This document shows, piece by piece, positions 10,463 to 64,000 of a stretch of DNA of 64,000 nucleotides (positions are counted from its first letter, which is position 1; each line of letters starts with the position of its first letter). Under the pieces are notes generated by a model, which was not told the origin of the DNA, ran no database searches, and was given only the letters and a program-made list of their open reading frames with translations. The DNA comes from Schmidtea polychroa. Taxonomy: Eukaryota. The DNA is taken from NCBI GenBank assembly GCA_044892525.1, contig CM097885.1:17734001-17798000 (forward strand), read 5' to 3'. A program made the translations under genes and the position numbers.

Positions 10463-12552
<2,090 letters not shown>

Positions 12553-12559
12553 TTAATTC

Positions 12560-22014: not shown

Positions 22015-22940
22015 TGATGATTTCTTGGTAGCAGCATTTATTATTTAAAACAATAAAATGATAATTTAAGCCTTTTGCAGCAAATAATGTATTTAATGAA
22101 AAAATTTTCGACAATAAGATAGTCCTAGTCAATCTCCTGGAATTTAGCAATGTTCTTCCCCAAAATACCTTTCAATCTTTCCTTTATTTCCTTTCTATTA
22201 ATTCTCATTGGTTATAAATATAATGAATTTTTTTATTAAAAACTTTTAAAATTTTTACATTTAAAATTCCAAAATGACACAAACTAAAAATTTTTAAATT
22301 TTTTTATACAGCTTCTATAATTAGCTTCTAGAAGCCTAATAAAATATTTCAAAATATTCTAAATAAAGCCTCCAATAACCACTTATATATGCTATTTAAA
22401 TATTTCAATAAATGTGTCAATTTTGATTTTCAAATCCTATTTTTTAAAATTTTCTATATTATTCTAATTATTACTTTTTAATTTATTATATATATTTTTT
22501 AATTTCTTTATATATTGTCAGTTATTTTCAAGGTCAATTGCAACAGATCAAATTCATGATTTCATTGATTTCTTCTTTAGTGTTGATCTTTGGCTGTCTG
22601 TTTATGATGAGAATTGCTTCTTTGAATCTGAAATTTTTCTTTTGGATGTTTCCATTAGCTATGATTTCGATTGAAATATTTTTTCTTTCCTCTGTTGGCT
22701 GACACTGCCGGAGATGTCTGTCCAACGAGGATGTTCCACCAGGATCTAGATGTTCTTTAACTCTTTGGTGCAAGGTCCTGAGGGTACTTCCAATGTAGAT
22801 TTCATTGCATACATTGCACGTGATGCAATAGACGATGTTTTTTCTAAAGCACATATCTTTCGGTGTCTGGCAGTTTTTCATTGTGCAATTGTTTTCTCTA
22901 TTTATGTTGCCTGCCAGAGCCCTTCTCAATTTATTATCAA
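22015..22940 (-). mobile_element. 5'-truncated Penelope-like element (GIY-YIG endonuclease plus 3' tail) between (ATT)n tracts
   Basis: KNIVYCITCNVCNEIYIGST.RTL.QRVKEH...RFKEAILI...PKINTKEE. Tail sequence is shared with ~30080-30170, 34625-35025 and 35885-36540. Confidence 0.85.
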
Positions 22941-23016
<76 letters not shown>

Positions 23017-23281
23017 GTTAGAAGAAGACATAGTTTCACAGAAATCTTTATTCACTTCAAAAATCTCAACGGAACACACAATCGTTATACTATTTATAGT
23101 ACATTGAATTGCGTAATCTACAAAAGGGAGAATTATTAGTTTAAGTGATACTGTTGACACAGAAGACACACATACTTACTTAATTTAGTTATACAAGCAT
23201 TCCCGCATCATTCAATAGATATCAAGGTCTAGTGACCTGGTTATGTAAGTAATTCGTTAGAAATTATTATATCATCTTACA

Positions 23282-25905: not shown

Positions 25906-33662
<7,757 letters not shown>

Positions 33663-34624: not shown

Positions 34625-36540
34625 CCTTTTGCTGCGAATTATATATTCAATAAAATGAAAGAATTGTCAACTATAAAAATAGTACTTTTCAATTTCCTGG
34701 AATTTACCTGCTTTAATTTTCAAATTCTTTTTAATCTTTTCTTTATTTTCCTTTCTCTTTCGTCTCATTGATTCAAAATAAAATAAATCAAAATAAAACC
34801 TTTTTTCAAGAATTTAAAATTAAATTTTCTCTAAAATTCAAAAAATAAATAAAAATTTCTAAATTTTTAAACTTTCTATAACTAGTTCTTAAGTTTTCTA
34901 ATAAATAATATTATAAAATATTTATTTATCAAAAATTTTTAAAAATACGCAATTCAAAATTTTTCAAACATAATTATATTCTGATTTTTTTTCTAATGAT
35001 TTTTAAAAGTTTACTTCCTTAAAATTTTATCTACAGGAGGATTTAGATGTCCTTTAATTAATTGGTACAAGTTCCTTAGTTTATTTCCAATGTATATTTC
35101 TTTGCATTCATTGCAAAAAACCAGCTTGCAAGGAAATATCAATGCGCCGAAGATCAGCGCTTCCATACTTACAGAAAGTAAGTGCCATAATAATCGAAAA
35201 ACAAAGGATGGTCAATCAATGTTTTGAAGAGAAGGAGAACTATAAACATCAATTAAACATCAATTTAGTCCTACACAGAAACAGATATCACAATAAGGAC
35301 TTTGAAATAATGAATCCCAAAAAGATCTATGGAGACAACACAAAAAAAGAAATATTTTTATCTGAATATTACATTCATCAGCGACATACTCGATTTCAAG
35401 ATCATGAATAAAGTTAAACGCACTGGCCTTCCAATTCGGATACAACGTAAGTCTTGAACATTGAGGGAAGCTCTTGTAAGCAACAAAAAAAATGAAAACA
35501 TTTTCACAATGCAAAACTTCCAGACATCGAAAGATATGTGCTTCCGAAAAAACGTTGTATATAATGTATGCAAAGAAATATACTAGAACTACGCTCAGGA
35601 ACTTGCACCAAAGAGATAAAGAACATCTATATCCTGTTGGTAAATCCTCGGTATACAGACATCTTCAATGATGTCAATCAAGGAAAGAAAGAAAAAAAAA
35701 TTTAATTGAAATCGTAGCCAATGGCAACATCCCAAGAAATGTCAGATTTAAAGAGCCGATTCTCATCATAAACAGACGGCCAACAATCAATCCTAAAGAA
35801 TAAATCAATGAAATTATCAGTTTGATTAGTTGTTATTGACCTTGTGAATATTTTCATTTTAAAAAATAATATAAAAAACTAGATCAAATTTTAAGGAAGT
35901 AAACTTTTAAGAATCATTAGGAAAATAATCAGAATATAATTATGTTTAAATTACGTATATAAATAGTTATTTAAACTTTTTTGATAAATAAATATTTTAT
36001 AATATTATTCATTGGAAAACTTAAGAACTAGTTATAGAAACTTTAAAAATTTAAAAATTTTTTTATTGTTTTATTTTGAATTTTAAAGTAAATTTAATTT
36101 TGAATTCTTGAAAAAAGGTTTTATTTTGATTTAATTTATTTTGAATCAATAAGGAGAGAAAGCAAAATAAAGAGAAGATTAAAAAGCATTTGAAAATTAA
36201 AGCAACTAAATTCTAGGAAATTGAAAAGTACTATTTTTATAGTTGAAAATTCTTTCATTTTATTGAATATTTTTATACATATATATTTATACTTTACAGC
36301 AAAAGGCTTAAATAATCATTTAATTATTATAAGAACTTTTTTTCCAATTTCACCACTGATTATTTTTTCCATTGAATTTATTAAAAAGAGAGCTTGAAGA
36401 TTATAAATCAGTAATATATCGATGTTTTTGATACTCACTAATTTTCGGCAGTGCCTTTTTTAAGTGAATTTTTTTTAAATTGTTTTCATTTAATTGTTTA
36501 ATATTGAATTAATGCTGCTACCAAGAAATCATCACTTTAT
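34625..36540 (+). mobile_element. Degenerate Penelope-like element with its ~400-bp tail also present inverted at the 5' side
   Basis: 35500-35839 is homologous to the GIY-YIG region at 22534-22900. 34625-35025 is an inverted copy of ~35885-36310. Confidence 0.75.
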
Positions 36541-36543
36541 AAT

Positions 36544-36578
<35 letters not shown>

Positions 36579-36592
36579 ATTATTATTATTAA

Positions 36593-36717
<125 letters not shown>

Positions 36718-37035
36718 TGATGTAATTATAATGGGATATTTGATTTCCCTAACCTTTACCCTAAGTTTTTGGAATTTATCAATTAGTCTTATTCTTTACA
36801 AGGCCACCAGGCTTTCAATCCAGGAATTATTACGGATTCTCTCGCAACCGAAGCTCTATTCAATTGGAAATGATTTGGAAGAATTTATTGAGAAGATTGA
36901 ATTATACTTTTTAATTATTCAGAAAAGTCATTGTTCGAGCTTATTTGGATGAAAATTGCCACAACAAATATGACAAAATTCCAGATGAAGAAAAGGCTTA
37001 GATTAGCATTCGAAGACAACTTGGATTTAGCTAAG
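36718..37035 (+). mobile_element. Probable 5' remnant (LTR start plus gag fragment) of a Ty3/Gypsy element
   Basis: Starts tgatgtaattataatgggatatttgat, similar to the post-PPT sequence at ~59150. Gag-like PKLYSIGNDLEEFIEKIELYF and KKRLRLAF. Confidence 0.5.
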
Positions 37036-37142
37036 AGTAGATGGATTGGGCACCGCTGGCACAGGGCACCGCTAGCACAGTACCCCCCTCCCCCCGTCGG
37101 TAAGATTTTCAAAAATATTCTAAGTCTAAAAGTACATTTTTT

Positions 37143-37645
37143 TTCAAGGTCAAATTTAAACAAAGACATATGACTCATCAAGGTCATTTAAACAAAGACC
37201 ATGACTCATCAAGGTCATTTTCAAGGTCGTATGGCTCATACTATGACTCATCAAGGTCATTTTCAAGGTCATATGACTCGTCCGATGAGTCATAAAAATT
37301 TTCAAGGTCATTTAAACAAGGATCATGACTCATTCAAGGTCATTTTCAAGGTCATGTGACTCATTCAAGGTCATTTTCAAGGTCATATGACTCATTCAAG
37401 GTCATTTTCAAGGTCATATGACTCATTCAAGGTCATTCTCAAGGTCATATGACTCATACTATGACTCATCAAAAAATTTCCAAGGTCATATGACTCATAC
37501 TATGACTCATCAAAAAATTTCCAAGGTCATATGACTCATACTATGACTCATCAAAAATTTTCAAGGTCATTTTCAAGGTCATATGACTCATCCAAGGTCA
37601 TTCTCAAGGTCATATGAGTCATCGCGATGAGTCATCAAGGTCATA
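37143..37645 (+). repeat. Subterminal array of ATGACTCAT and TCAAGGTCA motifs (inverted copy ~55225-55862)
   Basis: Dozens of tgactcat and caaggtca units alternate with variable spacing. Confidence 0.9.
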
Positions 37646-38159
37646 TTATTATTTTTAAAAAATATTATTATTTTTATTATTATTTTTTCAAAATATTATT
37701 AAGTGTGCTAGCGGTGCCCTACTATTTGGCATGCCAAAAGTTATCGTTCCCATCATTTTATTTCATCGATCGATAGCTTGTTTTGAAGCTTGGTGCAAGA
37801 CCTTTCGAATGAGGTATAATGGTCATCACCATCATTAATATTGGCAAAGTTATTAACATTTTCCCGAGACCATTTTCAAGGTCATTTGACTATTTTATTA
37901 TTATTTTTTAAAATATTATTTTTTTTTCAAGGTCATTTATTTTTTCAAGGTCAAATTTTTTCAAGGTCAATTTTTTTTCAAGGTCAAATTTTTTTTCAAG
38001 GTCATATTTTAAAATTTAAATTTACAGAGTTCCCGCCAACGAACATTATTCAACGATAGCTCATTTGAAAGCCCAATCCAGGACCTTTCGATTGAGCCAT
38101 ATATCTCATTATTAACATTATTATTTCTAAAGATATTATTATTATTATAATTATTATTA

Positions 38160-42537
<4,378 letters not shown>

Positions 42538-42602
42538 CATCATTATTATTATTATTATTTTTATTATTATTATTATTATTATCATCATTATTATTATTAT
42601 TA

Positions 42603-42724
<122 letters not shown>

Positions 42725-43045
42725 ATTTTCAAAGTTATTTTGAAAATTCGTCTTCTTATTATTATTATAATTTACAAATATTCATAAAACTTAATTTCTA
42801 CCTCAATTACATGATTTTCAACATTTTCATCATTTGCATGATTATTTTAATAATTTTCATTATTTTCATAATTTTCTACATTTTCAATATTTTCATAATT
42901 TCCAACATTTTCATAATTTTCTACATTTTCAATATTTTCATTATTATTTCAGGAACATTTTCATCAAATATTTTTCAAAGTAATATTTCCGTTAGCTTAT
43001 TTTCAAACAGTTCTTATTATTACTTTTATTATTATTTACAAAGTT

Positions 43046-43079
<34 letters not shown>

Positions 43080-43320
43080 GATTATTATTGCAAATATTCA
43101 TAAAACTTAATTTCTACCTCAATTTCATGATTTTCAACATTTTCATCATTTACATGAATATTTTCATCATTTGCATGATTATTTTAATAATTTTCTACAT
43201 TTTCAATATTTTCACGATTTTCAACATTTTCATGATTATTTCAGGAACTTTTCATCGAATATTTTTCAAAGTATAATTTTCAAAGAATTATTTTCAAATT
43301 ATTTTCAAAGTTTTTATCAA

Positions 43321-43383
<63 letters not shown>

Positions 43384-43887
43384 CATTATTATTATTATTA
43401 TTATTATTATGATTATTATTGCAAATATTCATAAAACTTAATTTCTACCTCAATTTCATGATTTTCAACATTTTCATCATTTACATGAATATTTTCATCA
43501 TTTGCATGATTATTTTAATAATTTTCATTATTTTCATAATTTTCTACATTTTCAATATTTTCACGATTTTCAACATTTTCACGATTTCAGCATTTTCATG
43601 ATTATTTCAGGAACATTTTCATCAAATATTTTTCAAAGTATTATTTTCAAAGAATTATTTTCATTATTATTATTTACTTAAATATTCATAAAACTTAATT
43701 TCTACCTCAATTACATGATTTTCAACATTTTCATCATTTGCATGATTATTTAAATAATTTTCTACATTTTCAATATTTTCACGATTTTCAACATTTTCAT
43801 GATTATTTCAGGAACTTTTCATCGAATATTTTTCAAAGTATTATTTTCAAAGAATTATTTTCAAATTATTTTCAAAGTTTTTATCAA

Positions 43888-43953
<66 letters not shown>

Positions 43954-44458
43954 CATTATTATTATTATTATTATTATTATGATTATTATTGCAAATATTC
44001 ATAAAACTTAATTTCTACCTCAATTTCATGATTTTCAACATTTTCATCATTTACATGAATATTTTCATCATTTGCATGATTATTTTAATAATTTTCATTA
44101 TTTTCATAATTTTCTACATTTTCAATATTTTCACGATTTTCAACATTTTCACGATTTTCAGCATTTTCATGATTATTTCAGGAACATTTTCATCAAATAT
44201 TTTTCAAAGTATTATTTTCAAAGAATTATTTTCATTATTATTATTTACTTAAATATTCATAAAACTTAATTTCTACCTCAATTACATGATTTTCAACATT
44301 TTCATCATTTGCATGATTATTTAAATAATTTTCTACATTTTCAATATTTTCACGATTTTCAACATTTTCATGATTATTTCAGGAACTTTTCATCGAATAT
44401 TTTTCAAAGTATTATTTTCAAAGAATTATTTTCAAATTATTTTCAAAGTTTTTATCAA

Positions 44459-44600
<142 letters not shown>

Positions 44601-44985
44601 TGCGAAGTTCTTATTATTTTATTTTCGATGTTTTATTATTATTTACTTAAATATTCATAAAACTTAATTTCTGCATCAATTTACGATTTTCAATATTTGA
44701 TGATTATTTTCAGGAACATTTTCATAATGTTTAACGTTTTCATCATTTTCAATATTTTCATCATTTTCATCATTTTCAATATTTTCACGATTTTAAACAT
44801 TTTCAGGAACATTTTCCTCATTTTCAACATTTTCTATATTTTCATGATTTTTAACATTTTAATAATTTTCACGATTTTCAATATTTTCATGATTAAATAT
44901 TATTATTGTCATTTTCAAGGTCGCATGACTCATCCAAGGTCATTCTCAAGGTCATATGAGTCATCGCGATGAGTCATCAAGGTCA

Positions 44986-45024
<39 letters not shown>

Positions 45025-45422
45025 CTCCTTGCCTATCCGACAAAATATTTTGTCCCCCTATGGGTACTGCTCACACTCAACAGGTTGCAAGGTTACTAGT
45101 CATGCTTATTATTATTGTTATACAATATGATCTTACTTAGACATTTGAAGGTTCAACCATGGTTACAATTTCTAAATTTTGAAAACTCTAATTTGATTGG
45201 CTATCTCAATTTTTATAAATGTAAAAACAAAAGTAATTTATTTATTAAGAAATTTATTACTGATGATTTCTACAAGTAAAACTGTTGAATATGAATGTGT
45301 AAATCACAAAACACATTTGGTAACTTTATTATTTTGTCAATATTTTTTATATATGTCACTTATAGCAAGGAAGTCCTACTAGAAATAAGGAAAAATTAAG
45401 TCCAACCTATTCTGAAATTTCA

Positions 45423-45915
45423 TTGAAATTTTTCAACAACACAGTTGAAGATTTTATAAATAATCATGATACTTACAGTGATAAGCAAATCATAAATATT
45501 TTAAAAATTTTCAAACATTCCTCTATTGAATATTTGATTGATTTATTTAATTATGATAAATGCATTTTGAAGTTATCTAGTTATTTAATGTATTTAGAAA
45601 AAACAGTGGTAAACGACGATTCACTGAATGAATTACTTTTGGAGTTGCATGTATTTAAGGTTGAAACCGGGATATAGTAGATTGATTTATGAATGGATAG
45701 CAAAAGCCGACTTGATTGAAAATAAGCTAACGGAAAAACTGAACGATGTTAAGAAAAGGTATTTAACCTGTTCAATTTGTAAAGAAAATCAAGTTTCGGT
45801 TTTGTATTTACCGTGTGGTCACGTAATTGTTTGTTCTAAGTGTCACGAGAAGAATGTTCGCAATCGTCAAGCCTGTTTAATACTGATTAATGAATATCAT
45901 ACTATATACATGTAA
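45423..45915 (+). pseudogene. Frameshifted gene ending in an IAP/MDM2-type RING finger
   Basis: CSICKENQVSVLYLPCGHVIVCSKC...RQAC...YHTIYM*, where the penultimate Cys appears replaced by Arg. The upstream part is in another frame. Confidence 0.7.
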
Positions 45916-48900
45916 GTTCTCAATACAAATCAATACAATATCAAAGTCAAATGAATTATTAACAGACATAATGACGGTACTATAATGTAGGAAATTTTCA
46001 AACATTGAATAATATGAAATCAGCTTGGTAATTAATTATATTGGGCGCAACTACCAAATGTTGATGATATGATGAAGGGAATGGTATTTATAATATTATT
46101 TTTAGATTATTCAGAATGAAATATACCCATGAGTTCATCAAAATGGAAAACGATCTTCGCAAGAACCATGAAGATGCTGGATGTATTGGTTATTATTTTT
46201 TCGGAAATAAATGTTTTAATTTGTTTTTATAAATTTATTGTTTTATTGTAATACTTTTTGATTAAAACATATTCATTTTGTTTTAATATTTGTATTAATT
46301 TTTTTTATATAGTGTTATTTATATATATGGAAATTTACAATTATATATAAATTATATTTACAATTATTATAAATCATAATGATGCTTTTCTTCTGTTCAT
46401 TGATTCTCCTCAGATATTACTGCCATAATCATCTTCGACAAAATGTAAAGATAATATTTCTAGTGTCTTTGTTAATCATGCCCATTTATTGCTAAGTCTT
46501 TGTTAATTATGCACTTGTATTGCAAATTTATTAGTCATACAATTATATTATTTTTTCATAATATTATTATTTTTAATTTTATTATTATGATTATTTAACA
46601 ATACCATATAGCAAATTTTTAGGCAATTTAGTGAAAAGTACATGGTTATTTTAAATATATAGCAATTTCTTAAGTAAAATATTTCCAGATAAATTTAAAA
46701 ATTTAGTTAGAAATCCATGGTTTTTGGCTGTACCCTTTAATTAAAATATTCTTGGATTCATAACAAATTTTTTTATATAGTTGATAGTAATACCAATTAT
46801 CTCAATTATTTAACTAGAAACATAACTGAATTCTTAGGTAATATAGTATTTTTTAGTTAATTTATAAATATTATCTGACATTTTAATGTATCAATGCAAT
46901 ATACAACAAATTAATCAATAAAAACCATAGCATATTGTAAGTTTTTATATATATTCTGAATTTATCCGACAATATATTTTGTCCCTCTATGTGTATTTGT
47001 CGTAAGGGTACTGCTTACATTCAACATGTCGCAAGGGTACTGCTTACATTCAACATGTCGCAAGGGTATATTAATTAAAGCACATGTATATTAGTTAAAT
47101 TTTCTTAGGTAATTTAGTGAGAAATGGATGATCATAGATATCAGAAATTCGTGAATATTTTGAATGTAACTTACCGAATTCTCATTTCGAGCGACTAATT
47201 TATTGGTTAACTTTGTCATGTTTAGTCATTTAAAATAATATTTAGCAAAAGGTAAGATATGAATATTTAGTATTTCATAGGTAATTTATTCATGTAATGT
47301 TCATTACAATAGTTAATATAACTTCGTGGGAAATGCATATTCATTAATAACAACATATATTCATTGATAATTTTGGTAGAAAGTCTTTATCATTTGGAGT
47401 AAATTTCTATCTTTGTTTGAGGCAAAAGGAGTCATAATAGAAACATGATCATTTAGTTATCATTTAACCAATTAAGGTGCTTATTAGTTAGAAATATAGG
47501 GTTACAATTCTTTTCTAATTTATTGAGATGATCATTGGGTGTAATATATCTTTGTGAGAAATACATGCTTAATATTATTAAATAGGGATTTTGAGTAACC
47601 TTTTACCAAAACAGCGATATTTTGTGCGAATAATTTAAGAATATTGGTTAATTTTCTCTTTTTTAGTCATTTAAAATAATATTTAACAAAGGTAATTTAG
47701 CAAAATATCATTGAAAGATTTATCCATCCGATAACTATATTTCTTCAATAGATTTTACCCTTAATATTCAACCGATTTAATTTCTAGAAATCTAATTAAA
47801 ATCATAAAATATTTTCAATAAAGATCAATTTTCTTTAGCTGTTGTCGATTTCCAACTTTTAAGTCAATATTTCTCAATATTTCCCCACAATGAATAAAAT
47901 AACTTCTTAAATAAAATAATTTAATAACCTTTGATATCAATCCCAATTAATTCTAAAGATTTCAAATATTTCATTGTCAAAACCAAGTAAATAGATCATT
48001 AACCCTAAACGACTTAATAAAACAATGGTTAATTAATAAAAATTGGTTCTAAAACATAAATTACTGTGCAATAACATTCATCACAACCTAATAAACCTCT
48101 AAAACGATATAATTTCACAGGAACTATTATTAATTCATAGCTAAATACTGACTATGTCCCTTTGATATTTTATCAATAAGAACATTGTCGATTTAAATAG
48201 AGATTTCAAACATTTCCACCTTAACCGATCCCTCACTAAATATTTCTACCCCTTTAAATATCCCTTTAAATACCATCTTAACTAAACCTTCACTAAATCC
48301 AACCGACTTTAATATATCAATTCTCTTAAAATCCATAGAAAATTCTTCAAAATATGAATTTTATTTAATTGTTACAGACATCCTTCCATTGAAATAATTT
48401 AGTATCTAAATTCATATAGTAAGAGCTCACTAAAAGATCAAAATTCACTAAAATCAATATTTTCAACAAATATTTCACCACATTTACCATCAAATACCTA
48501 ACTAGAGATGAAATATATTGATCATAATTCTTCATCGATTCAGCCAATTATATAGCAATTATAACCGTGATATATCTTTCAAAATCACAAATTTCAGTAT
48601 ATTTATCTCGAGTGTTATTAAAATTATCTTTCGACTTTACGCTTCTTACCATTTTAGAATTTGTGATTTTGAAAGATATATCACGGTTATAATTGCTATA
48701 TAATTGGCTGAATCGATGAAGAATTATGATCAATATATTTCATCTCTAGTTAGGTATTTGATGGTAAATGTGGTGAAATATTTGTTGAAAATATTGATTT
48801 TAGTGAATTTTGATCTTTTAGTGAGCTCTTACTATATGAATTTAGATACTAAATTATTTCAATGGAAGGATGTCTGTAACAATTAAATAAAATTCATATT

Positions 48901-51335
48901 TTGAAGAATTTTCTATGGATTTTAAGAGAATTGATATATTAAAGTCGGTTGGATTTAGTGAAGGTTTAGTTAAGATGGTATTTAAAGGGATATTTAAAGG
49001 GGTAGAAATATTTAGTGAGGGATCGGTTAAGGTGGAAATGTTTGAAATCTCTATTTAAATCGACAATGTTCTTATTGATAAAATATCAAAGGGACATAGT
49101 CAGTATTTAGCTATGAATTAATAATAGTTCCTGTGAAATTATATCGTTTTAGAGGTTTATTAGGTTGTGATGAATGTTATTGCACAGTAATTTATGTTTT
49201 AGAACCAATTTTTATTAATTAACCATTGTTTTATTAAGTCGTTTAGGGTTAATGATCTATTTACTTGGTTTTGACAATGAAATATTTGAAATCTTTAGAA
49301 TTAATTGGGATTGATATCAAAGGTTATTAAATTATTTTATTTAAGAAGTTATTTTATTCATTGTGGGGAAATATTGAGAAATATTGACTTAAAAGTTGGA
49401 AATCGACAACAGCTAAAGAAAATTGATCTTTATTGAAAATATTTTATGATTTTAATTAGATTTCTAGAAATTAAATCGGTTGAATATTAAGGGTAAAATC
49501 TATTGAAGAAATATAGTTATCGGATGGATAAATCTTTCAATGATATTTTGCTAAATTACCTTTGTTAAATATTATTTTAAATGACTAAAAAAGAGAAAAT
49601 TAACCAATATTCTTAAATTATTCGCACAAAATATCGCTGTTTTGGTAAAAGGTTACTCAAAATCCCTATTTAATAATGTTAAGCATGTATTTCTCACAAA
49701 GATATATTACACCCAATGATCATCTCAATAAATTAGAAAAGAATTGTAACCCTATATTTCTAACTAATAAGCACCTTAATTGGTTAAATGATAACTAAAT
49801 GATCATGTTTCTATTATGACTCCTTTTGCCTCAAACAAAGATAGAAATTTACTCCAAATGATAAAGACTTTCTACCAAAATTATCAATGAATATATGTTG
49901 TTATTAATGAATATGCATTTCCCACGAAGTTATATTAACTATTGTAATGAACATTACATGAATAAATTACCTATGAAATACTAAATATTCATATCTTACC
50001 TTTTGCTAAATATTATTTTAAATGACTAAACATGACAAAGTTAACCAATAAATTAGTCGCTCGAAATGAGAATTCGGTAAGTTACATTCAAAATATTCAC
50101 GAATTTCTGATATCTATGATCATCCATTTCTCACTAAATTACCTAAGAAAATTTAACTAATATACATGTGCTTTAATTAATATACCCTTGCGACATGTTG
50201 AATGTAAGCAGTACCCTTGCGACATGTTGAATGTAAGCAGTACCCTTACGACAAATACACATAGAGGGACAAAATATATTGTCGGATAAATTCAGAATAT
50301 ATATAAAAACTTACAATATGCTATGGTTTTTATTGATTAATTTGTTGTATATTGCATTGATACATTAAAATGTCAGATAATATTTATAAATTAACTAAAA
50401 AATACTATATTACCTAAGAATTCAGTTATGTTTCTAGTTAAATAATTGAGATAATTGGTATTACTATCAACTATATAAAAAAATTTGTTATGAATCCAAG
50501 AATATTTTAATTAAAGGGTACAGCCAAAAACCATGGATTTCTAACTAAATTTTTAAATTTATCTGGAAATATTTTACTTAAGAAATTGCTATATATTTAA
50601 AATAACCATGTACTTTTCACTAAATTGCCTAAAAATTTGCTATATGGTATTGTTAAATAATCATAATAATAAAATTAAAAATAATAATATTATGAAAAAA
50701 TAATATAATTGTATGACTAATAAATTTGCAATACAAGTGCATAATTAACAAAGACTTAGCAATAAATGGGCATGATTAACAAAGACACTAGAAATATTAT
50801 CTTTACATTTTGTCGAAGATGATTATGGCAGTAATATCTGAGGAGAATCAATGAACAGAAGAAAAGCATCATTATGATTTATAATAATTGTAAATATAAT
50901 TTATATATAATTGTAAATTTCCATATATATAAATAACACTATATAAAAAAAATTAATACAAATATTAAAACAAAATGAATATGTTTTAATCAAAAAGTAT
51001 TACAATAAAACAATAAATTTATAAAAACAAATTAAAACATTTATTTCCGAAAAAATAATAACCAATACATCCAGCATCTTCATGGTTCTTGCGAAGATCG
51101 TTTTCCATTTTGATGAACTCATGGGTATATTTCATTCTGAATAATCTAAAAATAATATTATAAATACCATTCCCTTCATCATATCATCAACATTTGGTAG
51201 TTGCGCCCAATATAATTAATTACCAAGCTGATTTCATATTATTCAATGTTTGAAAATTTCCTACATTATAGTACCGTCATTATGTCTGTTAATAATTCAT
51301 TTGACTTTGATATTGTATTGATTTGTATTGAGAAC

Positions 51336-51828
51336 TTACATGTATATAGTATGATATTCATTAATCAGTATTAAACAGGCTTGACGATTGCGAACATTCT
51401 TCTCGTGACACTTAGAACAAACAATTACGTGACCACACGGTAAATACAAAACCGAAACTTGATTTTCTTTACAAATTGAACAGGTTAAATACCTTTTCTT
51501 AACATCGTTCAGTTTTTCCGTTAGCTTATTTTCAATCAAGTCGGCTTTTGCTATCCATTCATAAATCAATCTACTATATCCCGGTTTCAACCTTAAATAC
51601 ATGCAACTCCAAAAGTAATTCATTCAGTGAATCGTCGTTTACCACTGTTTTTTCTAAATACATTAAATAACTAGATAACTTCAAAATGCATTTATCATAA
51701 TTAAATAAATCAATCAAATATTCAATAGAGGAATGTTTGAAAATTTTTAAAATATTTATGATTTGCTTATCACTGTAAGTATCATGATTATTTATAAAAT
51801 CTTCAACTGTGTTGTTGAAAAATTTCAA
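51336..51828 (-). pseudogene. Mirror copy of the RING-finger pseudogene
   Basis: Translation identical to 45423-45915. Confidence 0.7.
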
Positions 51829-52647
51829 TGAAATTTCAGAATAGGTTGGACTTAATTTTTCCTTATTTCTAGTAGGACTTCCTTGCTATAAGTGACATAT
51901 ATAAAAAATATTGACAAAATAATAAAGTTACCAAATGTGTTTTGTGATTTACACATTCATATTCAACAGTTTTACTTGTAGAAATCATCAGTAATAAATT
52001 TCTTAATAAATAAATTACTTTTGTTTTTACATTTATAAAAATTGAGATAGCCAATCAAATTAGAGTTTTCAAAATTTAGAAATTGTAACCATGGTTGAAC
52101 CTTCAAATGTCTAAGTAAGATCATATTGTATAACAATAATAATAAGCATGACTAGTAACCTTTCAACCTGTTGAGTGTGAGCAGTACCCATAGGGGGACA
52201 AAATATTTTGTCGGATAGACAAGGAGTATATAATAATAATAATAATAATATGACCTTGATGACTCATCGCGATGACTCATATGACCTTGAGAATGACCTT
52301 GGATGAGTCATGCGACCTTGAAAATGACAATAATAATATTTAATCATGAAAATATTGAAAATCGTGAAAATTATTAAAATGTTAAAAATCATGAAAATAT
52401 AGAAAATGTTGAAAATGAGGAAAATGTTCCTGAAAATGTTTAAAATCGTGAAAATATTGAAAATGATGAAAATGATGAAAATATTGAAAATGATGAAAAC
52501 GTTAAACATTATGAAAATGTTCCTGAAAATAATCATCAAATATTGAAAATCGTAAATTGATGCAGAAATTAAGTTTTATGAATATTTAAGTAAATAAAAA
52601 TAAAACATCGAAAATAAAATAATAAGAACTTCGCAAATAATAATAAT

Positions 52648-52846
<199 letters not shown>

Positions 52847-53073
52847 TTGATAAAAACTTTGAAAATAATTTGAAAATAATACTTTGAAAAATATTCGATG
52901 AAAAAATCCTGAAATAATCATGAAAATGTAGAAAATTATTAAAATAATCATGCAAATGATGAAAATGTTGAAAATCATGTAATTGACGTAGAAATAATAA
53001 ATATTTTATAAATATTTAAGTAAATAATAATAATGAAACTTCTAAATTAAAATAATAATTAGAACTTTCCAAA

Positions 53074-53116
<43 letters not shown>

Positions 53117-53370
53117 TCTTTGAAAATAATTCTTTAAAAATAATACTTTGAAAAATATTTGATGAAAATGATCCTGAAATAATCATGAAAATGCTGAAAA
53201 TCGTGAAAATGTTGAAAATCCTGAAAATGCTGAAAATCATGAAAATGTTGAAAATCGTGAAAATATTGAAAATGTAGAAAATTATGAAAATATTCATGCA
53301 AATGATGAAAATGTTGAAAATCATGAAATTGACGTAGAAATAAAGTTTTATGAATATTTGCAATAATAAT

Positions 53371-53414
<44 letters not shown>

Positions 53415-53777
53415 AACTTTGTAAATAATAATAAAAGTAATAATAAGAACTGTTTGAAAATAAGCTAACGGAAATATTACTTTGAAAAATATTTGATGAA
53501 AATGTTCATGTAACTAATGAAAATGTTCCTGAAATAATAATGAAAATATTGAAAATGTAGAAAATTATGAAAATGTTAAAAATCCATAAAATATTAATAA
53601 TTATGAAAATCATGAAAATGTTGGAAATTATGAAAATATTGAAAATTATTAAAATAATCATGCAAATGATGAAAATGTTGAAAATCATGTAATTGAGGTA
53701 GAAATTAAGTTTTATGAATATTTGTAAATTATAATAATAATAATAATAAGAAGAATTTTCAAAATAACTTTGAAAAT

Positions 53778-53821
<44 letters not shown>

Positions 53822-53864
53822 TAATAATAATAATAATAATGATAATAACAATAATAATAATAAT

Positions 53865-53930
<66 letters not shown>

Positions 53931-54930
53931 TTTGAAAATAACATCTTCCGCGCGGGCGTTATTATCTTTCCCAATAATAATAATAAATTAAATAATTACA
54001 TAATCGATAATTTAAACAAACGTAATCGATAATTAAAACAAAAAAAATAATATAATCAACGATTTAAACAAAATTAAATTATTACATAGTCGATAATTTA
54101 AACAAACATAATCGATAATTAAAACAAAAAAATGATATAATCAACGATTTAAACAAAACGAAATTATTATGTAATTGATAATTAAAACAAAAAAAATAAT
54201 ATAATCAACGATTTAAACAAAATAAATTATTAAGTAATTGATAATTAAAACAAAAAATAATAATATGACCTTGAAAATAATAATATTTTGAAAAGTAATA
54301 ATATGACCTTGAAAATAATAATATTTTGAAAAATAATAATATAACCTTGAAAATAATAATATTTTGAAAATTAATAATATGACCTTGAAAATAATAATAT
54401 TTTGAAAAATAATAATATGACCTTGAAAAAAAATAACGTAATCGATAATTAAAACAAAAAAATAATAGAATCAACGATTTAAACAAAATGAAATTATTAT
54501 GTAATTGATAATTAAAACAAAAAATATTATTATATAATTAACGATTTAAACAAAATGAAATTATTAAGTAATCGATAATTAAAACAAAAATAAAAATATT
54601 ATTATATAATCAACGATTTAAACAAAATTAAATTATTAAGTAATCGATAATTAAAACAAAAACAAAAATATTATTATATAATCAACGATTTAAACAAAAT
54701 TAAATTATTAAGTAATCGATAATTAAAACAAAAATAAAAATATTATCATATAATCAACGATTTAAAGAAAATTATTATTATTACGCAATATTTTGAAAAA
54801 TAATGATATGACCTTAAAAAAATAAAATAATCGAATGCGAGTTGTTGAGCGTGAGCAGTACCTTTGTGAGCATTACCCATGGGGGGACAAAATATTTTGT
54901 CGGATAGACTCAGAGTATATAGATTAATAC

Positions 54931-55065
<135 letters not shown>

Positions 55066-55976
55066 TAACAAGATATATAGCTCATTCGAAAGGTCTTGGA
55101 TTGAGCTTTAAAATGAGCTATCGATTATTATTTTTAGTTGGCGGGAATTTTGAAAAAATTAAAAATAAAATAATAATATTTTTAAAAATAATAATAAAAA
55201 TAATAATATTTTTTAAAAATAATAATATGACCTTGATGAGTCATTGCGATGACTCATATGACCTTGGGAATGACCTTGGATGAGTCATGTGCCCTTGAAA
55301 ATGTCCTTGGTGAGTCATAGGATGTCTCAGATGACCTTGAAAATGACCTTGAAAAATTTTGATGAGTCATAGTATGAGTCATGTGCCCTTGAAAATTTTT
55401 TGATGAGTCATAGTATGCGTCATATGACCTTGAGAATGACCTTGAATGAGTCATATGACCTTGAGAATGACCTTGATGAGTCATAGTATGAGTCATACGA
55501 CCTTGAAATGACCTTGATGAGTCATGGTCTTTGTTTAAATGACCTTGAAAATTTTTATGACTCACCTGATGAGTCATATGCCCTTGAAAATGACCTTGAT
55601 GAGTCATAGTATGAGTCGTACGACCTTGAAAATGACCTTGATGAGTCATGGTCTTTGTTTAAATGACCTTGAAAATTTTTTTTGACCTTGATGAGTCATA
55701 TTATGAGTCATATGACCTTGAAAATGACCTTGATGAGTCATAGCACGAGTCATGGTCTTTGTTTAAATGACCTTGAGAAATTTGATGAGTCATAGGATGA
55801 GTCATGGTCTTTGTTTCAATGACCTTGATGAGTCATATGTCTTTGTTTAAATTTGACCTTGAAAAAAATGTACTTTTAGACTTAGAATATTTTTGAAAAT
55901 CTTTTCGACGGGGGGGAGGGGGAGGGGGGTACTGTGCTAGCGGTGCCCTGTGCCAGCGGTGCCCAATCCATCTACT

Positions 55977-58900
55977 ACCCTAAATGCTGAATGTAATGAT
56001 TGTTTGGTTGATTGTTTGTTTGATAATCTAAATGTTGATTTTTCCCCAATCAAAAATTTGATTCTGATTTTTATTTAATTAATAATTACTGAACAAAATG
56101 TGAATGCCTGTATATTTGTGACTGATTGTGATAAAAATAATTGTTTTTTAAATATATCTAATAAAAAATTAAAATTACCGAGTGTTAATGTTATTAAAGA
56201 TATATATGATATAGGATATTGTAATGTAGATGGTAGACCATTTAATAATGTTAAATTAAATAATGTGACTTTTAATTCATTATTTGACACAGGAGCAAAA
56301 ATAAGTGTTTTATCCCAATCGATTGCTGAAAAATTAAATTTAAAATTTTTTAATGAAGGAAATAGAAAGATATCATGCGCAAACGGTAGTATGTTAGGGA
56401 TTTTAGGGAATGTTTCTCTAAGTTTAGAGTTTAACAATAAAGAAATAACTGGAGAATTTTTCGTTGCTATGGAAATATACCCAGAAGTAATTGTAGGAAT
56501 AGATATATCGAATTCTTTAAATATTAAGTTAGTTGAATTTTGTAATGAAAATGTCCTCAGTTTGCAAGCAAAATTTGGTAATATTTTAAAAATAAATAAT
56601 AAAAATAAATTTATGAATGAAATATTGAAAATAGAAAAATGCAATCCGATATATGAAGTAGTTGTTGAATTCTCAGATATTTTTATGTATAATAAATGGG
56701 ATATAGGCAAAAAAGATATTTTTAAGCACAGAATAGAAACTATTTGCAACCCAATACCAATTAAACCACGGCGAACACCAATGCATTATGAGGGAAAACT
56801 AGAGGAAATTGTTAAAAACCTAGAGGAAAATAAAATTATAGAGAAATGCGAATCACATTGGAATTCACCAATAGTATGTGTGCCAAAAAGGGTACTTCTG
56901 AAATTTGGATGTGTTTGGATTTTAGGATTTTAAATTCAAATACAGTTAGACCAGCTTTTCCAATTCCCAATGTTGATGAAATGCTTGATTCTTTGTATGG
57001 AGCCAAATATTTTTCGTCGATCGACTTAGGAAATGCCTATTATCAAGTTGAATTGGATGAAGAACGTAAATTGAAAACAGCATTTTCTACAAGACAGGGC
57101 CAATTTTGTTTTAATAGGATGCCTTTTGGAATAGCTGCCACACCATCAACGTTTCAAAAACTTATGACATTAATAATTGGAGATCTGATGTGAAATGAAG
57201 CATTAGTCTATTTAGATGACATATTAATCTTTTCGAAAACTATTGAAAAACAAAAAAAAAGAATAAATAAACTTTTCCTTAGAATTAAGGAATCAGGATA
57301 AAAAAATAACCCTGAGAAATGCAAGTTCTTAGTATCTGAATTAAAGTTTCTTGGACATATAATTAATGAAAAAGGTATCAAAACAGATAATTCTAAGATT
57401 GAAACAATTAAAAATGTAAAACAGCCTAATTGTGTGAAACATATTAGGAGTTTTTTAGGATTGTGTAATTACTATAGAAAATTTATTCAAAACTACTCAA
57501 AAATAGCTAGACCATTGGAATCTTTGATTGGAGGTAAAAACAAAAGTATTATTTGGACATCACACTGTGAAAAATCTTTTGACGAGTTAAAACATAGTTT
57601 GATCAGTGCACCATTACTATGCCATCCGTATTTTAATAAAAATTTCATTTTAGATACCGATGTTAGTTTTGATTGTATTGGCGCTGTTTTATCGTAAAGT
57701 GATGACAATAATGAAGAAAAGATAATCGCATATGGGTCAAAAGTATGAATAAACATGAAATTAGGTACTGTATAACAAAGAAGGAATTATTATCTGTTTT
57801 CCATTTTACACAGGATTTTAAACATTATCTCTACGGGAAAAAATTTATTTTAAGAACTGATCATAAGACAATCACATTTATGTTAACTACTAAAAAACCA
57901 ATTACCGCTCAGTTTCAAAATTGGATAAATTTTTTAAGTAGTTTGGACTTGAAATTAGAATGTCGCAGGAAATTGCACACAATGTCAGGTGAATCATATT
58001 GATGCTAAAGCAGAAAAAATTAAAACTAAAATTTTAGCAATTTCAATAGAAGATCAAACATTTAAATGGCAAAATAATTCTGAAGAAATAATGAAAATAA
58101 AAGAAAATATCCAGAACGGCAAAAATGAAAATTATTATGTGGACAATGGAATTATTATGATTCATAATAATAAAATATATATTCCTTCATATATGAAAAA
58201 CGATTTTATTTTAGAAATCCATAAAGAATTGTGTCATGCAGGAATCAACAAAACTACAAATTACATAAAGAATTATTACAATTTCCAAGAAATGGATAAA
58301 AGTATCAAGAGAATTATCACAACTTGTGAAATTTGCCAGAAACGTGAAATGTTCACTGGGAAAACAAAAGAAATTATTGAAAAATTAATTGCGCATGAAC
58401 CATTTGACAATATTTATATTGAATTTTGTGGCCCCTTTAAAATAACACCATCTGGCAAAAGATAGATCATTTTAAGTAAATATATAGTATTAAAAGCTGT
58501 AAGAACACAAGAAGAAAAGACATTAATTGATAATGTGAAAAGTTCGTGGATATTGAAGTTTGGACCACCAAAGGAAATTCATGTTGATAAAGGAAAATAC
58601 TTTGAATCCCAAGTTTTTAAAAATATGGCAGTAAAGTATCACTTGAAAATAGTTTATTCAAGCCCTTATCGTCATCAATCTAATGGACAAATTGAAAGTC
58701 AATTTAGAACGCTAAGAGACTGGATTTCATGCTGTCTGGAAGAGAAACAATTTAAGACATGGGAAGAAGCATTGCCTCATATAGAATTTGCAATGAACTC
58801 AACACTGCAGTCAAGTATAAAAGTTATTCCTGTTGAAGTAATATATGGAAGGAAATTTTGCAAAGAGCGTTTTATTAATGGTCCAGAAATTGATACTAAA

Positions 58901-59152
58901 GAATCAAAGAAGCATGAAATAGCATTGAATATTAAATCATTGAACCGCATAAATAATTATAATCAAGAAAATCGAATATATAGATCTTTCAGAGTTGGTG
59001 AATTAATTAACAAGCAAGATAACAGGTATTGCGGACCTTTTGAAATAATGGGAAAATATAATAAAAATAGTTATTTATTAAGGAATGCTGATAATAAATG
59101 TATTACTAGAAATGTGGAATGGCTAAAGCCATTTAAAACGAGGGGGATATGA
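55977..59152 (+). mobile_element. Decayed Ty3/Gypsy pol, same lineage as the 15-18 kb element
   Basis: SLFDTGA, FSSIDLGNAYYQ, YLDD, LDTDVS, RTDHK, HKELCHAG...CEIC and IHVDKG, with stops and frameshifts. PPT aaaacgaggggga at ~59135-59148. Confidence 0.92.
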
Positions 59153-60475: not shown

Positions 60476-61570
60476 ATGGCTTCAAACCAGCAAAACCCGA
60501 CAAACAATACACAGATACCCAACAACTATGAAAATGCTCACTCACCGGAAAACATGAACCACCTATACAACCCAAGCACCAACAACGCAAACACACACCC
60601 AACACACGAAAGCAGTAGTTATTATTACAACCCTGAAAATTCATCCGCGGTAAACTCAATACTAAACCCCAAGGCAAACATCCCAAATTTTTTCACAGAC
60701 GAAAACGGGACCCCACAAAAATGGCTAGAATTTGCCAAATTAACATTAAACCTATCAGGCATTAAATCATCAAGAACAGTCTGTTCTCACATAATTGCCG
60801 CCCTTCCCAGCAACATCCTGAACGAGATAGCCGATAGAATAGAGGAAATATCAAAGGACGACAACCCTTTCGAAAACTTATACAACACTTTAATAAATCG
60901 GAACAAAGTAAACAGACGAGAACTACTCGAATCCTGTTTGAAAGATATCCAATTGGGTAATGACAAACCGTCTGAATTTCTGCGAAACCTAAAGACAAAA
61001 CTCGAATACTTACAACCAAAAATAACAAGCACCGGGTCAAAAGAGTTCATCAAAGACCTTTTCATGCGCGCAATGCCACCTGAAATAAGACGGATTCTAG
61101 CTGCCAGCAACTGTACAGACCTCGATACTCTGGCAAACATAGCAGACAAAATCAACGACGAAATATACCCAACAATATGTAGAACTTACCAAAACAAAAA
61201 TATTTTTAAGAGCAACGAAAACAAACCTGTACACAATAGCTCAGAAACTACAGAAACGAACAAACTCCTCTCAACTCTGGTAACAAAATTCGACGAAATA
61301 ATTATTGAAAACAAAAATCTAAGAAAAGACATAACCGAATTACAAAGAAGAGAATCCAGGAGAACTCAATATTACGAAAACAGACAAAATTATTCCAGAC
61401 AAAATACACGATCTGGCAGCCGCAACAGCTTCGACAGAAACAAAACAGGGAACAACCCCAATAATTGCACAAACCAAAACTATTGTTACTACCACAATAA
61501 ATTTGGAAATAAAGCATACAAATGCAACAAACCCTGCACCTTCGACAAAGAAGAGTCGGGAAACATATAA
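60476..61570 (+). CDS. gag: Gag of a CsRN1/Kabuki-type Ty3/Gypsy element
   Basis: LGNDKPSEFLR, LANIADKI and the C-terminal CYYHNKFGNKAYKCNKPC (CHCC) motif. Confidence 0.92.
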   Translation: MASNQQNPTNNTQIPNNYENAHSPENMNHLYNPSTNNANTHPTHESSSYYYNPENSSAVNSILNPKANIPNFFTDENGTPQKWLEFAKLTLNLSGIKSSRTVCSHIIAALPSNILNEIADRIEEISKDDNPFENLYNTLINRNKVNRRELLESCLKDIQLGNDKPSEFLRNLKTKLEYLQPKITSTGSKEFIKDLFMRAMPPEIRRILAASNCTDLDTLANIADKINDEIYPTICRTYQNKNIFKSNENKPVHNSSETTETNKLLSTLVTKFDEIIIENKNLRKDITELQRRESRRTQYYENRQNYSRQNTRSGSRNSFDRNKTGNNPNNCTNQNYCYYHNKFGNKAYKCNKPCTFDKEESGNI

Positions 61571-61621
61571 AGTCACCAATGATAGCACCGACATCGGGTG
61601 ACAGCCAAACCTTCACGGTGC
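61558..61621 (+). promoter_or_regulatory. -1 programmed ribosomal frameshift signal
   Basis: G GGA AAC slippery heptamer in the gag frame, then stem GTCACC/GGTGAC. Loop GCACCG can pair with downstream CGGTGC, giving an H-type pseudoknot. Confidence 0.85.
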
Positions 61622-64000
61622 ATAGCAATGGCCTCAATTTTCTTGTTGATTCAGGTTCAATAATTTCATTATTACCGAATTACCTATACAAAAACACAAA
61701 AACCGAAACCGCAAATTTGTGCGCAGCAAACGGCAGCCCAATAAAAACGTTCGGAAAGCAAAACATTAACATCACCATCAACAACACACAATACAATTGG
61801 CAATTCACTATCGCTGAAGTCAAACAAGCTATTTTAGGAGCAGATTTCCTTTCATACTATAATCTACTAGTCGACTGTAAGAATGGAAAAGTCATACCAA
61901 ACAATTCAAATGACATACACCACAAAAATAAACAATCAAAAAAACAAATCAATTGTGACATCGGAGTAATAACAGCCCAAAACGGTGAAGAAAAAACAAA
62001 TAAAACAGAAACAAACTGGCACATACCTAACGAAATCACAAAACTGATACAAAATGTAGCAAATATAACTAATAAATTAGAAGCAAACAATAACACCAAA
62101 TGCATAACCGAACACATAATAATTAGCAACGGAAACCCAGTCCATGCAAAAGTCAGACAGTTAGACAAAAATAAACTCGAGATAACTAAGAAAATATTCG
62201 ACGAACTACTAGAAAATCAAATCGTCAAACACTCAAACTCAAACTGGTCATCAGCCCTCATGCTTAAAGAAAAGGCAAACGGCGAATGGCGAGCCTGCGG
62301 AGACTACAGAGCATTAAACAATATCACAACAGCCGACAAATACCCAATCCCAATAATAAACGATATCATCAACAGATTTAACAAACCCAAAATTTTCAGC
62401 AAAATCGATTTACAAAAAGCCTATCATCAAATTCCCGTCAGAACTGAAGACATAAAGAAAACAGCAATCATCACACCCATAGGACTGTTCGAGTATAACA
62501 AAATGCCTTTCGGATTAAAAAATGCTGCAGCCACTTTCCAACGCTTCATGGACCAAATATTACGAAATCAACAGAACACAGTCGCATACCTTGACGACAT
62601 TCTGATAGCATCTGCAAACAAAACAGAACATATACAAAATATTAAAAATGTGTTCGAAATATTAAGCAAACACGAGCTAAAAATTAACATAAAAAAATGT
62701 GAATTTCTGAAAACAGAAATAAAATTCCTGGGACACATGTTAAACGAAAACGGAACAAGACCTTTAGACGACAAAATCAAAGCAATCAAAAATTACCCCC
62801 TACCCAAAACTACTAAAGAGCTAAGACGTTTCCTTGGAATGATCAATTTCTATCACAAATACATACCAAGATGTAGTGAAATGCTAGCCCCTCTCAATGA
62901 ACTGAACAAAATAAAGAGAAACATCAAAATAGATTGGAACGAAAAACTAATAACAGCGTTCGAGCAGGCAAAAGAAAATCTGAAAAATGCAAGCATCCTA
63001 AACTATCCCAACCAAGATTTACCATACATAGTCAACACAGATTGTTCGGGAGTAGCAATGGGCGGAACGATATTCCAAGAAGAAAATAACGAAAAAAGAC
63101 CAATAGCCTTCTTCTCAAAGAAACTCAAAACTCACCAAATGAGATACTCCACTTTTGACAGGGAGTTATTAGCGTTACATGATACAATCAGACATTTCCA
63201 ATACTTTTTGGAAGGAAAAGATTTCGAAGTGTATACCGACCATAAACCCTTAATAAACGCAATGAACATGAAAAATCCTTCACCGAGACAAATAAGACAA
63301 TTAAACTATATTTCACAATTTAATTGCAAAATAAAATACATAGCAGGTTCTGCTAACATAAGTGCAGATGCATTATCAAGAATAGAAACTGACATAAATG
63401 CACTTAACATAACACCCATCATAGAGTTAGAAAAGTTAAAAACTAAACAAAAAGAAACAACAATCGAAACTCCAAGGATGAATTCACTCCATCTGGAAGA
63501 AATAGACGGCATATGGTACGACACTTCAAATGACAATAACAAAAGGATTGTAGTACCAGCAGAACTGCGCGATCAATACCTCCAAAAATATCACAACATC
63601 TACCATCCGGGAAACAAAGCCACATACGAACTTCTGCATACCAAAGTTGTTTGGCCTTATATGAGAAGGGACGTAAAAATATTCGTAAAAAATTGCCCAC
63701 AGTGTCAAAAGAATAAAATAACAACAAAACAATTCAAAACAACAATTGTACAATTCCCAAGTTCTGAACCGTTCGAAACGATACATATCGACATAGTCGG
63801 CCCTCTACCTCCAAATAATAAACACAAGTACTTATTAACTATAATAGATCGAAAAACAAATTGGTTCGAAGCCATTCCCATAAAGGAAATATCAGCAGCA
63901 AAAATATGCAGTAAATTAGAATTAAACTGGTTCGCCCGGTATGGCTGCCCAAAGACAATAATCAGCGATCAGGGTAGGCAATTTGAATCCGACATTTTCA
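61561..64000 (+). CDS. pol: Pol polyprotein (PR-RT-RH-IN) in the -1 frame, running off the window
   Basis: FLVDSGS, ILGADFL, WRACGDYRALN, IDLQKAYHQ, YLDD, TDCSG, DRELLA, TDHKPL, HNIYHPG...CPQC, IHIDIVGP and ISDQGRQF all fall in the same frame. Confidence 0.93.

What the first reader, a model, noticed from the sequence alone, without database searches (positions are those of the whole stretch)
48581..48670. Palindrome centre is a sharp 64-bp asymmetric spacer
Arm symmetry ends at ...aaaatcacaaatt (48593) and resumes at aatttgtgatttt (48658). A short unique loop between long arms fits intrastrand fold-back priming or replication through a hairpin end. Such a centre could extrude a cruciform and exist in flip and flop orientations.
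Basis: partly seen in the sequence, partly recalled or inferred. Interest (0 to 1): 0.7.

Follow-up and report, generated by a model that had tools for sequence, protein, structure and literature searches.

The report
Loop of a palindromic Maverick-ended repeat
The short unpaired stretch is the central loop of a many-copy, mirror-image mobile element with Maverick-type ends in an animal-type genome, and its two arms were recently copied from one another, which offers a way to test how these virus-like elements copy their DNA.

Summary
Observation confirmed: 3,593-bp arms with 3 mismatches (45001-48593, 48658-52250) enclose a unique, unstructured 64-nt spacer. It is the centre of an 18.9-kb unit with inverted AGTAGA ends, no intact target-site duplication and no core Maverick gene found. 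The arm is a high-copy repeat (48,878 contigs in one run). In that run 51 contigs read through the spacer, carry about 19 further letters and return to the right arm. So the turn is shared by other copies, and 64 nt is probably a shortened loop, not the original turn point. Of 20 rare variants, 19 lie on both arms: the arms were re-copied from each other after this lineage diverged. Best reading: a passive loop of a snap-back-type, non-autonomous Maverick derivative whose second arm is templated on the first during helper-driven replication (inferred). Host gene conversion is the main rival. Flip/flop could not be tested; cruciform extrusion is unlikely with so long a loop. The scan noted palindromic Maverick-ended elements before at other places of this genome.

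The parts
48594..48657 (.). Central loop (spacer), 64 nt in this copy; about 81-83 nt in other copies seen in run X1
   Evidence: loose end behind 48660
45001..48593 (+). Left inner arm, ungapped mirror of the right inner arm
   Evidence: 3 mismatches in 3,593 bp
48658..52250 (-). Right inner arm
44415..45000 (+). Continuation of the near-identical tract (mirror 52251-52899), ending in an ATT run
   Evidence: 7 mismatches in 739 aligned bases for tiles 52150-52899
37036..44414 (+). Left outer arm: terminus, short-unit repeats, ATT runs, a 2.1-kb tandem duplication (38134-40250 / 40243-42359)
   Evidence: 9 mismatches in 2,117 for the duplication
52900..55976 (-). Right outer arm: same modules in other order and number, about 6% diverged from the left
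   Evidence: 152 mismatches in 2,615 aligned bases
37036..37089 (+). Left terminus, begins AGTAGA
   Evidence: 54 of 54 identical to the right terminus
55923..55976 (-). Right terminus
   Evidence: no 6-bp target-site duplication
45366..45912 (+). Broken gene in two frames for a helical protein with C-terminal RING finger; mirror copy on the other arm
   Evidence: PF13920 E 5.5e-10; relatives P0070, P0071 at 45-46%; upstream piece matches P0070, E 2e-08 pairwise
45034..45052 (+). Conserved 19-nt motif, also at 46963, at the mirrors 50270 and 52199, at 54888 and outside the unit at 13331; role unknown
   Evidence: 6 matches against 0.01 expected

Best explanation
The spacer is the passive central loop of a high-copy, palindromic, non-autonomous element with Maverick/Polinton-type ends. 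SHOWN: the palindrome, the matching ends, the many copies, a turn shared with other copies of one run, and recent arm-to-arm copying in this copy. INFERRED: an ancestor arose once when a strand of a gene-bearing Maverick-like element folded back and copied its own left part, giving two identical origins. A helper's protein-primed polymerase replicates it by strand displacement; after passing the loop the new strand can fold onto itself and use its own first arm as template, so both arms are reset to one sequence while the loop, which has no partner, drifts and loses letters. This copy's 64 nt is such a shortened loop. A loop this long keeps the palindrome fairly quiet in the chromosome and costs nothing in a fully single-stranded intermediate. 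Because both ends are alike, flip and flop are the same molecule and carry no function. The step in arm identity near 52.9 kb and the missing target-site duplication suggest that this locus later joined with the outer arm of another copy. My odds: family loop rather than one-off event about 0.85; self-templating during element replication as cause of arm identity about 0.5.
For: Arms 99.9% alike while 65-73% of the laid contigs in all four runs are under 99% alike to this copy. Among 40 variant rows shown of 246, 20 have the window's letter nearly absent in X5 and X7 and in the minority in X1; 19 of the 20 sit on both arms, 1 on the left only. 51 X1 contigs leave at 48660 and their printed consensus returns to the first 12 letters of the right arm (chance about 1.6e-05). 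Summed depth in the spacer bin is 0.27, 0.23 and 0.15 of the adjoining arm bin in X1, X5, X7, below the 1 expected for a plain internal region; weak, as the tool warns that summed depth is no copy number. Termini identical over 54 bp and starting AGTAGA, 5 of 6 letters of the (AGT)2 end motif given in PMC8097293. A protein-primed-type polymerase gene lies in the same window (PF03175). A single-stranded intermediate is the model proposed for Polintons (PMC4046053 passage).
Against: The longer loop is seen in one run only, which may be the window's own source; median loose length is 14 letters and agreement 0.75, so the return to the arm rests on the longer minority of the 51 contigs; 24 of 1,706 loose-end rows were shown. 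X7 leaves the spacer after 11 letters (3 contigs) and shows no return to the arm within 30 letters; X12 has no cover there. Near-identity stops at about 44415/52899 instead of reaching the ends, which whole-arm self-templating does not explain without a later join. No target-site duplication. No helper with the same ends, no free DNA form and no parent were found. The rare-variant count uses only the 40 best-supported rows.
Confidence: 0.55

Rival explanations
1. Conventional long-inverted-repeat (foldback-like) element: the loop is what is left of a deleted interior, and the host keeps the inner arms alike by arm-to-arm gene conversion or hairpin repair in the chromosome, working outwards from the centre.
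For: Near-identity covers about 4.2 kb around the loop and then drops to about 6%, as a conversion tract would. Arm homogenisation and spacer deletions are known in chromosomal palindromes (PMC8327919 passages) and by template switching (PMC8604942 passages). Explains 19 of 20 shared variants equally well.
Against: The drop is a step at a microsatellite run, and the target-site duplication is missing too, which one later join of two copies explains together. Does not by itself explain why a many-copy family keeps a loop of under 100 nt.
Confidence: 0.25
2. Library or assembly artefact: in-vitro fold-back at the palindrome (or one molecule read twice) made the arms identical, a read error shortened the loop, and the assembler joined another copy's outer arm at the ATT run.
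For: No shown contig bridges 48657/48658. The identity step falls in a microsatellite and the flanks share no duplication. Library type is not on record.
Against: Three substitutions separate the arms, and at 47573 the right arm has the common letter and the left a rare one, so the arms are not one sequence written twice. X1 contigs return to the same arm boundary, not to random points.
Confidence: 0.1
3. One-off fold-back priming at a chromosome break at this locus, with 48657/48658 as the true turn point.
For: Anatomy matches break-induced inverted duplications that end at a dispersed repeat (PMC10622511 passages); step at 52.9 kb.
Against: Other copies turn at the same arm boundary with a longer loop. 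The spacers in the passages read were 6 and 35 bp and 3-12 bp, shorter than here.
Confidence: 0.05
4. The loop is a functional site: a flip/flop switch, an extruding cruciform or a hairpin-telomere resolution site.
For: Sharp edges; the left edge and the first 11 spacer letters are shared with X1 and X7 contigs.
Against: No structure or symmetry in the loop; length and content vary between copies and runs; extrusion starts at the centre and a 52-bp spacer already removed fork stalling in eukaryotic cells (PMC7999016 passages); no Rfam family in 36500-56500.
Confidence: 0.05

Closest known systems
Maverick/Polinton self-synthesising elements (PMC8097293, passages read)
   Same: Long terminal inverted repeats, AGT-rich end, overall length (18.9 kb against 12.7-24.6 kb for intact vertebrate elements); a protein-primed-type polymerase gene in the same window.
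   Different: Inverted homology runs to within 64 nt of the middle (reported TIRs 46-1,447 bp); no core gene found in the unit; end reads AGTAGA; no 6-bp duplication in this copy.
Snap-back defective viral genomes (PMC13506859, one passage read)
   Same: Almost wholly self-complementary, little or no coding capacity, presumably helper-dependent.
   Different: The passage concerns RNA viruses and a loop of one nucleotide; this is DNA, sits in a chromosome in many copies and has a loop of 64-83 nt. Palindromic and hairpin derivatives of terminal-protein replicons (yeast killer plasmids, phi29, Streptomyces plasmids) are recalled from memory, not read here.
Foldback inversions from intrastrand priming (PMC10622511, passages read)
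   Same: Long perfect arms, short asymmetric centre, outer end closed at a dispersed repeat.
   Different: Those are single rearrangements with spacers of 6-35 bp; here the centre is shared by copies of a mobile family.
Chromosomal palindromes kept alike by gene conversion (PMC8327919, passages read)
   Same: Arm-to-arm divergence far below divergence between homologues; deletions concentrated at the spacer.
   Different: Those are host gene-bearing loci with kilobase-scale deletions; this is a dispersed mobile repeat with a tiny loop.
Foldback (FB)/Galileo and MITE-type non-autonomous transposons (recalled; Galileo seen only as a mention)
   Same: Long inverted arms built of tandem sub-repeats, variable middle, no own enzyme.
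   Different: Ends are Maverick-like, not those of a cut-and-paste transposase family; arms include kilobases of unique, once-coding sequence.

Membership tests
Maverick/Polinton (autonomous) | Terminal inverted repeats | tested here: met
   37036 and 55976, 54 of 54 identical, homology continues inward
Maverick/Polinton (autonomous) | End motif (AGT)2 or (AG)3 | tested here: inconclusive
   Both ends read AGTAGA, 5 of 6 letters of (AGT)2
Maverick/Polinton (autonomous) | 6-bp target-site duplication | tested here: not met
   1 of 6 at the boundary, at best 4 of 6 over 25 shifted boundaries
Maverick/Polinton (autonomous) | Polymerase, integrase, ATPase, protease, capsid genes inside the element | tested here: not met
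   Frames of 125 aa or more in 37036-55976 are repeat-derived; of 7 shorter pieces scanned only the RING piece gave a clear Pfam match. Decayed core genes were not sought with dedicated profiles.
Non-autonomous Maverick derivative | An autonomous helper with the same ends in the genome | not testable with these tools
   No genome held; end motif absent from viral contigs; the polymerase gene at 1060-5442 was not tied to these ends
Non-autonomous Maverick derivative | Dispersed multi-copy family | tested here: met
   48,878, 7,289, 382 and 1,444 contigs laid in four runs of four studies, most under 99% alike; copy number itself not measured
Snap-back defective genome | Near-complete self-complementarity with a short loop | tested here: met
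   outer arms of this copy are unequal (11,558 and 7,319 bp)
Snap-back defective genome | Derived from an identified parent at a defined turn point | tested here: inconclusive
   No parent found; X7 loose end at 48604 may be another loop or a parent
Snap-back defective genome | Free, helper-replicated DNA form | not testable with these tools
   Only assembled contigs were available
Flip/flop hairpin terminus (pox- or parvovirus type, recalled) | Two complementary loop orientations; nearly paired loop | tested here: inconclusive
   Loop is unpaired; orientation not testable, nearest arm difference 1,020 bp away

The most novel reading that the evidence does not exclude
An integrating DNA snap-back satellite of animal Mavericks: a head-to-head palindrome whose loop is the obligatory turn of a hairpin replication intermediate, so that each round of helper-driven copying rebuilds one arm from the other. 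It has spread to many chromosomal copies, still carries mirror copies of a RING-protein gene from its parent, and records the single-stranded step of Maverick replication in its sequence.
Probability: 0.35. Interest if true: 0.8.

Novelty: new variant of a known kind. Interest (0 to 1): 0.52.

Why it matters
How Mavericks replicate is still a model (single-stranded intermediate, protein priming). A family with two arms and a short loop is a built-in recorder: comparing arm-to-arm with copy-to-copy divergence, and the position where identity ends, separates self-templating during element replication from host gene conversion using sequence alone.

Tried and rejected
No genome held. DNA patterns: none in viral contigs or metagenome contigs. 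Related loci in viral contigs: none for the RING alignment or the polymerase. Longer homologues: none for 45366-45674 or alignment A3; weak evidence by the tool's own note. Atlas: no usable hit for 45366-45674 and 48196-48360; the frame that starts in the spacer has no Atlas result. Exact look-up of 4 window proteins: none held. No RNA holder listed. Rfam: 0 matches. Codon-usage scoring could not fix the coding strand near the centre. The gag-like look of the left flank got no Pfam match and no tblastx match, so insertion into one retrotransposon is not shown. Literature: searches with Polinton/Maverick plus palindrom and non-autonomous (11 papers), planarian and inverted repeat (7), foldback (5), racket-like (20 of 124 listed), AGTAG (15 of 38), nonautonomous termini (15 of 27) and snapback (1) showed no title or abstract on palindromic Mavericks; the library lacks most subscription papers and Repbase, and no supplements were read. 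Rejected: spacer as structured RNA or hairpin; spacer as decayed continuation of the arms; 48657/48658 as priming site.

Full report
Observation. Base pairing between the two sides of the centre ends at 48593/48658. The arms 45001-48593 and 48658-52250 align without gaps over 3,593 bp with 3 mismatches. The 64-nt spacer does not fold (188 and 198 of 200 shuffles fold at least as well), has no inner symmetry (835 of 2,000 shuffles score as high) and has no second copy in the window.

Setting. The window is 74% AT and holds retrotransposon genes and a protein-primed-type polymerase gene at 1060-5442, as in an animal genome; the organism was not identified and no whole genome is held. The palindrome is the middle of an 18,941-bp unit, 37036-55976, whose ends are inverted, identical over 54 bp and start AGTAGA. 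Vertebrate Mavericks end in (AGT)2 or (AG)3 with 6-bp duplications and have TIRs of 46-1,447 bp (PMC8097293, passages). Here the end matches 5 of 6 letters and there is no duplication: 1 of 6 at the boundary, at best 4 of 6 over 25 shifted boundaries. Near-identity continues to about 44415/52899 (7 mismatches in 739) and then steps to 152 in 2,615 (5.8%) in outer arms of unequal length. No core Maverick gene was found inside, so the unit is not filed as an autonomous Maverick. It is not gene-free either: each arm carries a broken gene for a helical protein with a C-terminal RING finger (PF13920; relatives at 45-46%; upstream piece matched). Whether that family belongs to Mavericks is open; the relatives lie on contigs of 537-1,409 bases or have none on record.

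The centre in other copies. Of 24 runs listed I laid 4, from 4 studies, on 45030-48700. They gave 48,878, 7,289, 382 and 1,444 contigs, 65-73% of them under 99% alike to this copy: a diverse, high-copy family, though summed depth gives no copy number. In X1, 51 contigs leave the window at 48660; their printed consensus runs about 19 letters beyond the window's spacer and then matches the first 12 letters of the right arm (chance about 1.6e-05). So other copies turn at the same arm boundary with a loop of about 81-83 nt, and this copy lacks about 19 letters, with 3 letters shared by both sides of the gap (read by eye). Limits: one run, possibly the window's source; median loose length 14, agreement 0.75; 24 of 1,706 loose-end rows shown. 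X7 leaves the spacer after 11 letters in 3 contigs with other sequence and no return to the arm in 30 letters; X12 has no cover in the last bin. No shown piece (32 of 58,545) bridges 48657/48658, so the short form may be private to this copy or a sequencing error. Depth in the spacer bin is 0.27, 0.23 and 0.15 of the adjoining bin, compatible with one loop per two arms plus loop variety, but weak.

The arms were copied from each other. One search showed 40 of 246 variant rows. In 20 of the 40 the window's letter is nearly absent from X5 and X7 (98% or more other letter) and in the minority in X1. Of these 20, 19 are on both arms and 1 (47573) on the left only; with 98% required in all three runs it is 3 of 4. 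Independent mutation of two arms would put such letters on one arm. The arms were therefore reset to one sequence after this lineage left the family's common form, and only 3 differences have arisen since.

How it most likely works. Inferred: an ancestor arose when a strand of a gene-bearing Maverick-like element folded back and copied its own left part, which gave two identical origins. A helper's polymerase copies it by strand displacement through a single-stranded stage, the model proposed for Polintons (PMC4046053, passage). Once the new strand has passed the loop it can pair with itself and use its first arm as template, the intramolecular switch described for short inverted repeats (PMC8604942, passages). 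Arms are reset, the unpartnered loop drifts and loses letters. A long loop suits the chromosome: extrusion starts at the centre, and a 52-bp spacer removed fork stalling in eukaryotic cells (PMC7999016, passages). With equal ends flip and flop are the same molecule. The step at 52.9 kb and the missing duplication are best met by a later join with another copy's outer arm; this is an added assumption. Confidence 0.55.

Rivals. Host arm-to-arm conversion from the centre outwards (0.25) explains the shared variants and the 4.2-kb tract as well, and spacer deletions are common in chromosomal palindromes (PMC8327919, passages). Artefact (0.10): the junction is unconfirmed and the step lies in a microsatellite, but the arms differ by 3 substitutions and X1 returns to a fixed boundary. 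One-off break repair here (0.05): the anatomy fits foldback inversions (PMC10622511, passages), but the turn is shared. Functional switch or resolution site (0.05): the loop is unstructured and variable.

Comparison and novelty. It works like a snap-back defective genome (PMC13506859, one passage on RNA viruses) with Maverick-type ends; membership of either kind is only partly met, as the table shows. Seven searches aimed at palindromic, foldback or non-autonomous Mavericks listed nothing on them by title or abstract; passages of PMC6431247, PMC8504770, PMC3014272, PMC8969392 and bioRxiv 10.1101/2023.08.22.554363 held none; no supplements were read and Repbase is not covered. Earlier notes of this scan describe gene-less palindromic Maverick-ended elements of 10.9-17.7 kb elsewhere in this genome and one copy-back element with mirrored genes; they are unchecked and are not counted as support. 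No look-alike of this arm was among them. My reading was set before I saw them.

Verdict. Real feature; new variant of a known kind; interest 0.52. The element is the surprising thing and its arms make a testable record of replication; the 64-nt loop itself is probably a passive, shortened loop.

Noticed in passing
window 1060-5442 (-) and 481-1035 (-): Open 1,460-aa protein-primed-type polymerase gene (PF03175); closest relatives 52-53% identical on metagenome contigs. The 184-aa frame behind it resembles the polymerase's own C-terminal part by eye.
   Followed up: partly
window 5603-5847: 245-bp element with 24-bp perfect inverted ends starting AGTAGT; flanks show no 6-bp duplication. Possibly a miniature Maverick-ended element.
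   Followed up: partly
window 10460-13700: Another AGTAG-type start followed by short-unit repeats, an AAT run and the 19-nt motif at 13331: perhaps an end of a related element.
   Followed up: no
window 44892-45075: The inner arm begins with a second copy of the sub-terminal module plus motif seen at 55303-54865, as if the core came from the left end of another element.
   Followed up: partly
window 37702-37720: Short inverted copy of terminal-repeat sequence inside the left arm, at the edge of a stretch that the right arm lacks.
   Followed up: no
window 48368-48652 (-): An ATG inside the spacer opens a 95-codon frame with one stop that reads outward into the left arm; the region is C-rich on +. 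No Pfam match; coding strand not settled.
   Followed up: partly
window 34643-35033 and 35880-36270: Inverted repeats of about 390 bp (89%) around a decayed frame like the GIY-YIG frame at 22534-23169.
   Followed up: no
window 56100-59152 (+), 60476-63999 (+), 15221-17831 (-): Gypsy-type retrotransposon remains; the one right of the element starts just beyond its terminus.
   Followed up: partly
window 33117-33662 (+): 181-aa frame that looks like a host gene exon (LicD-like by recall); no Pfam match.
   Followed up: no
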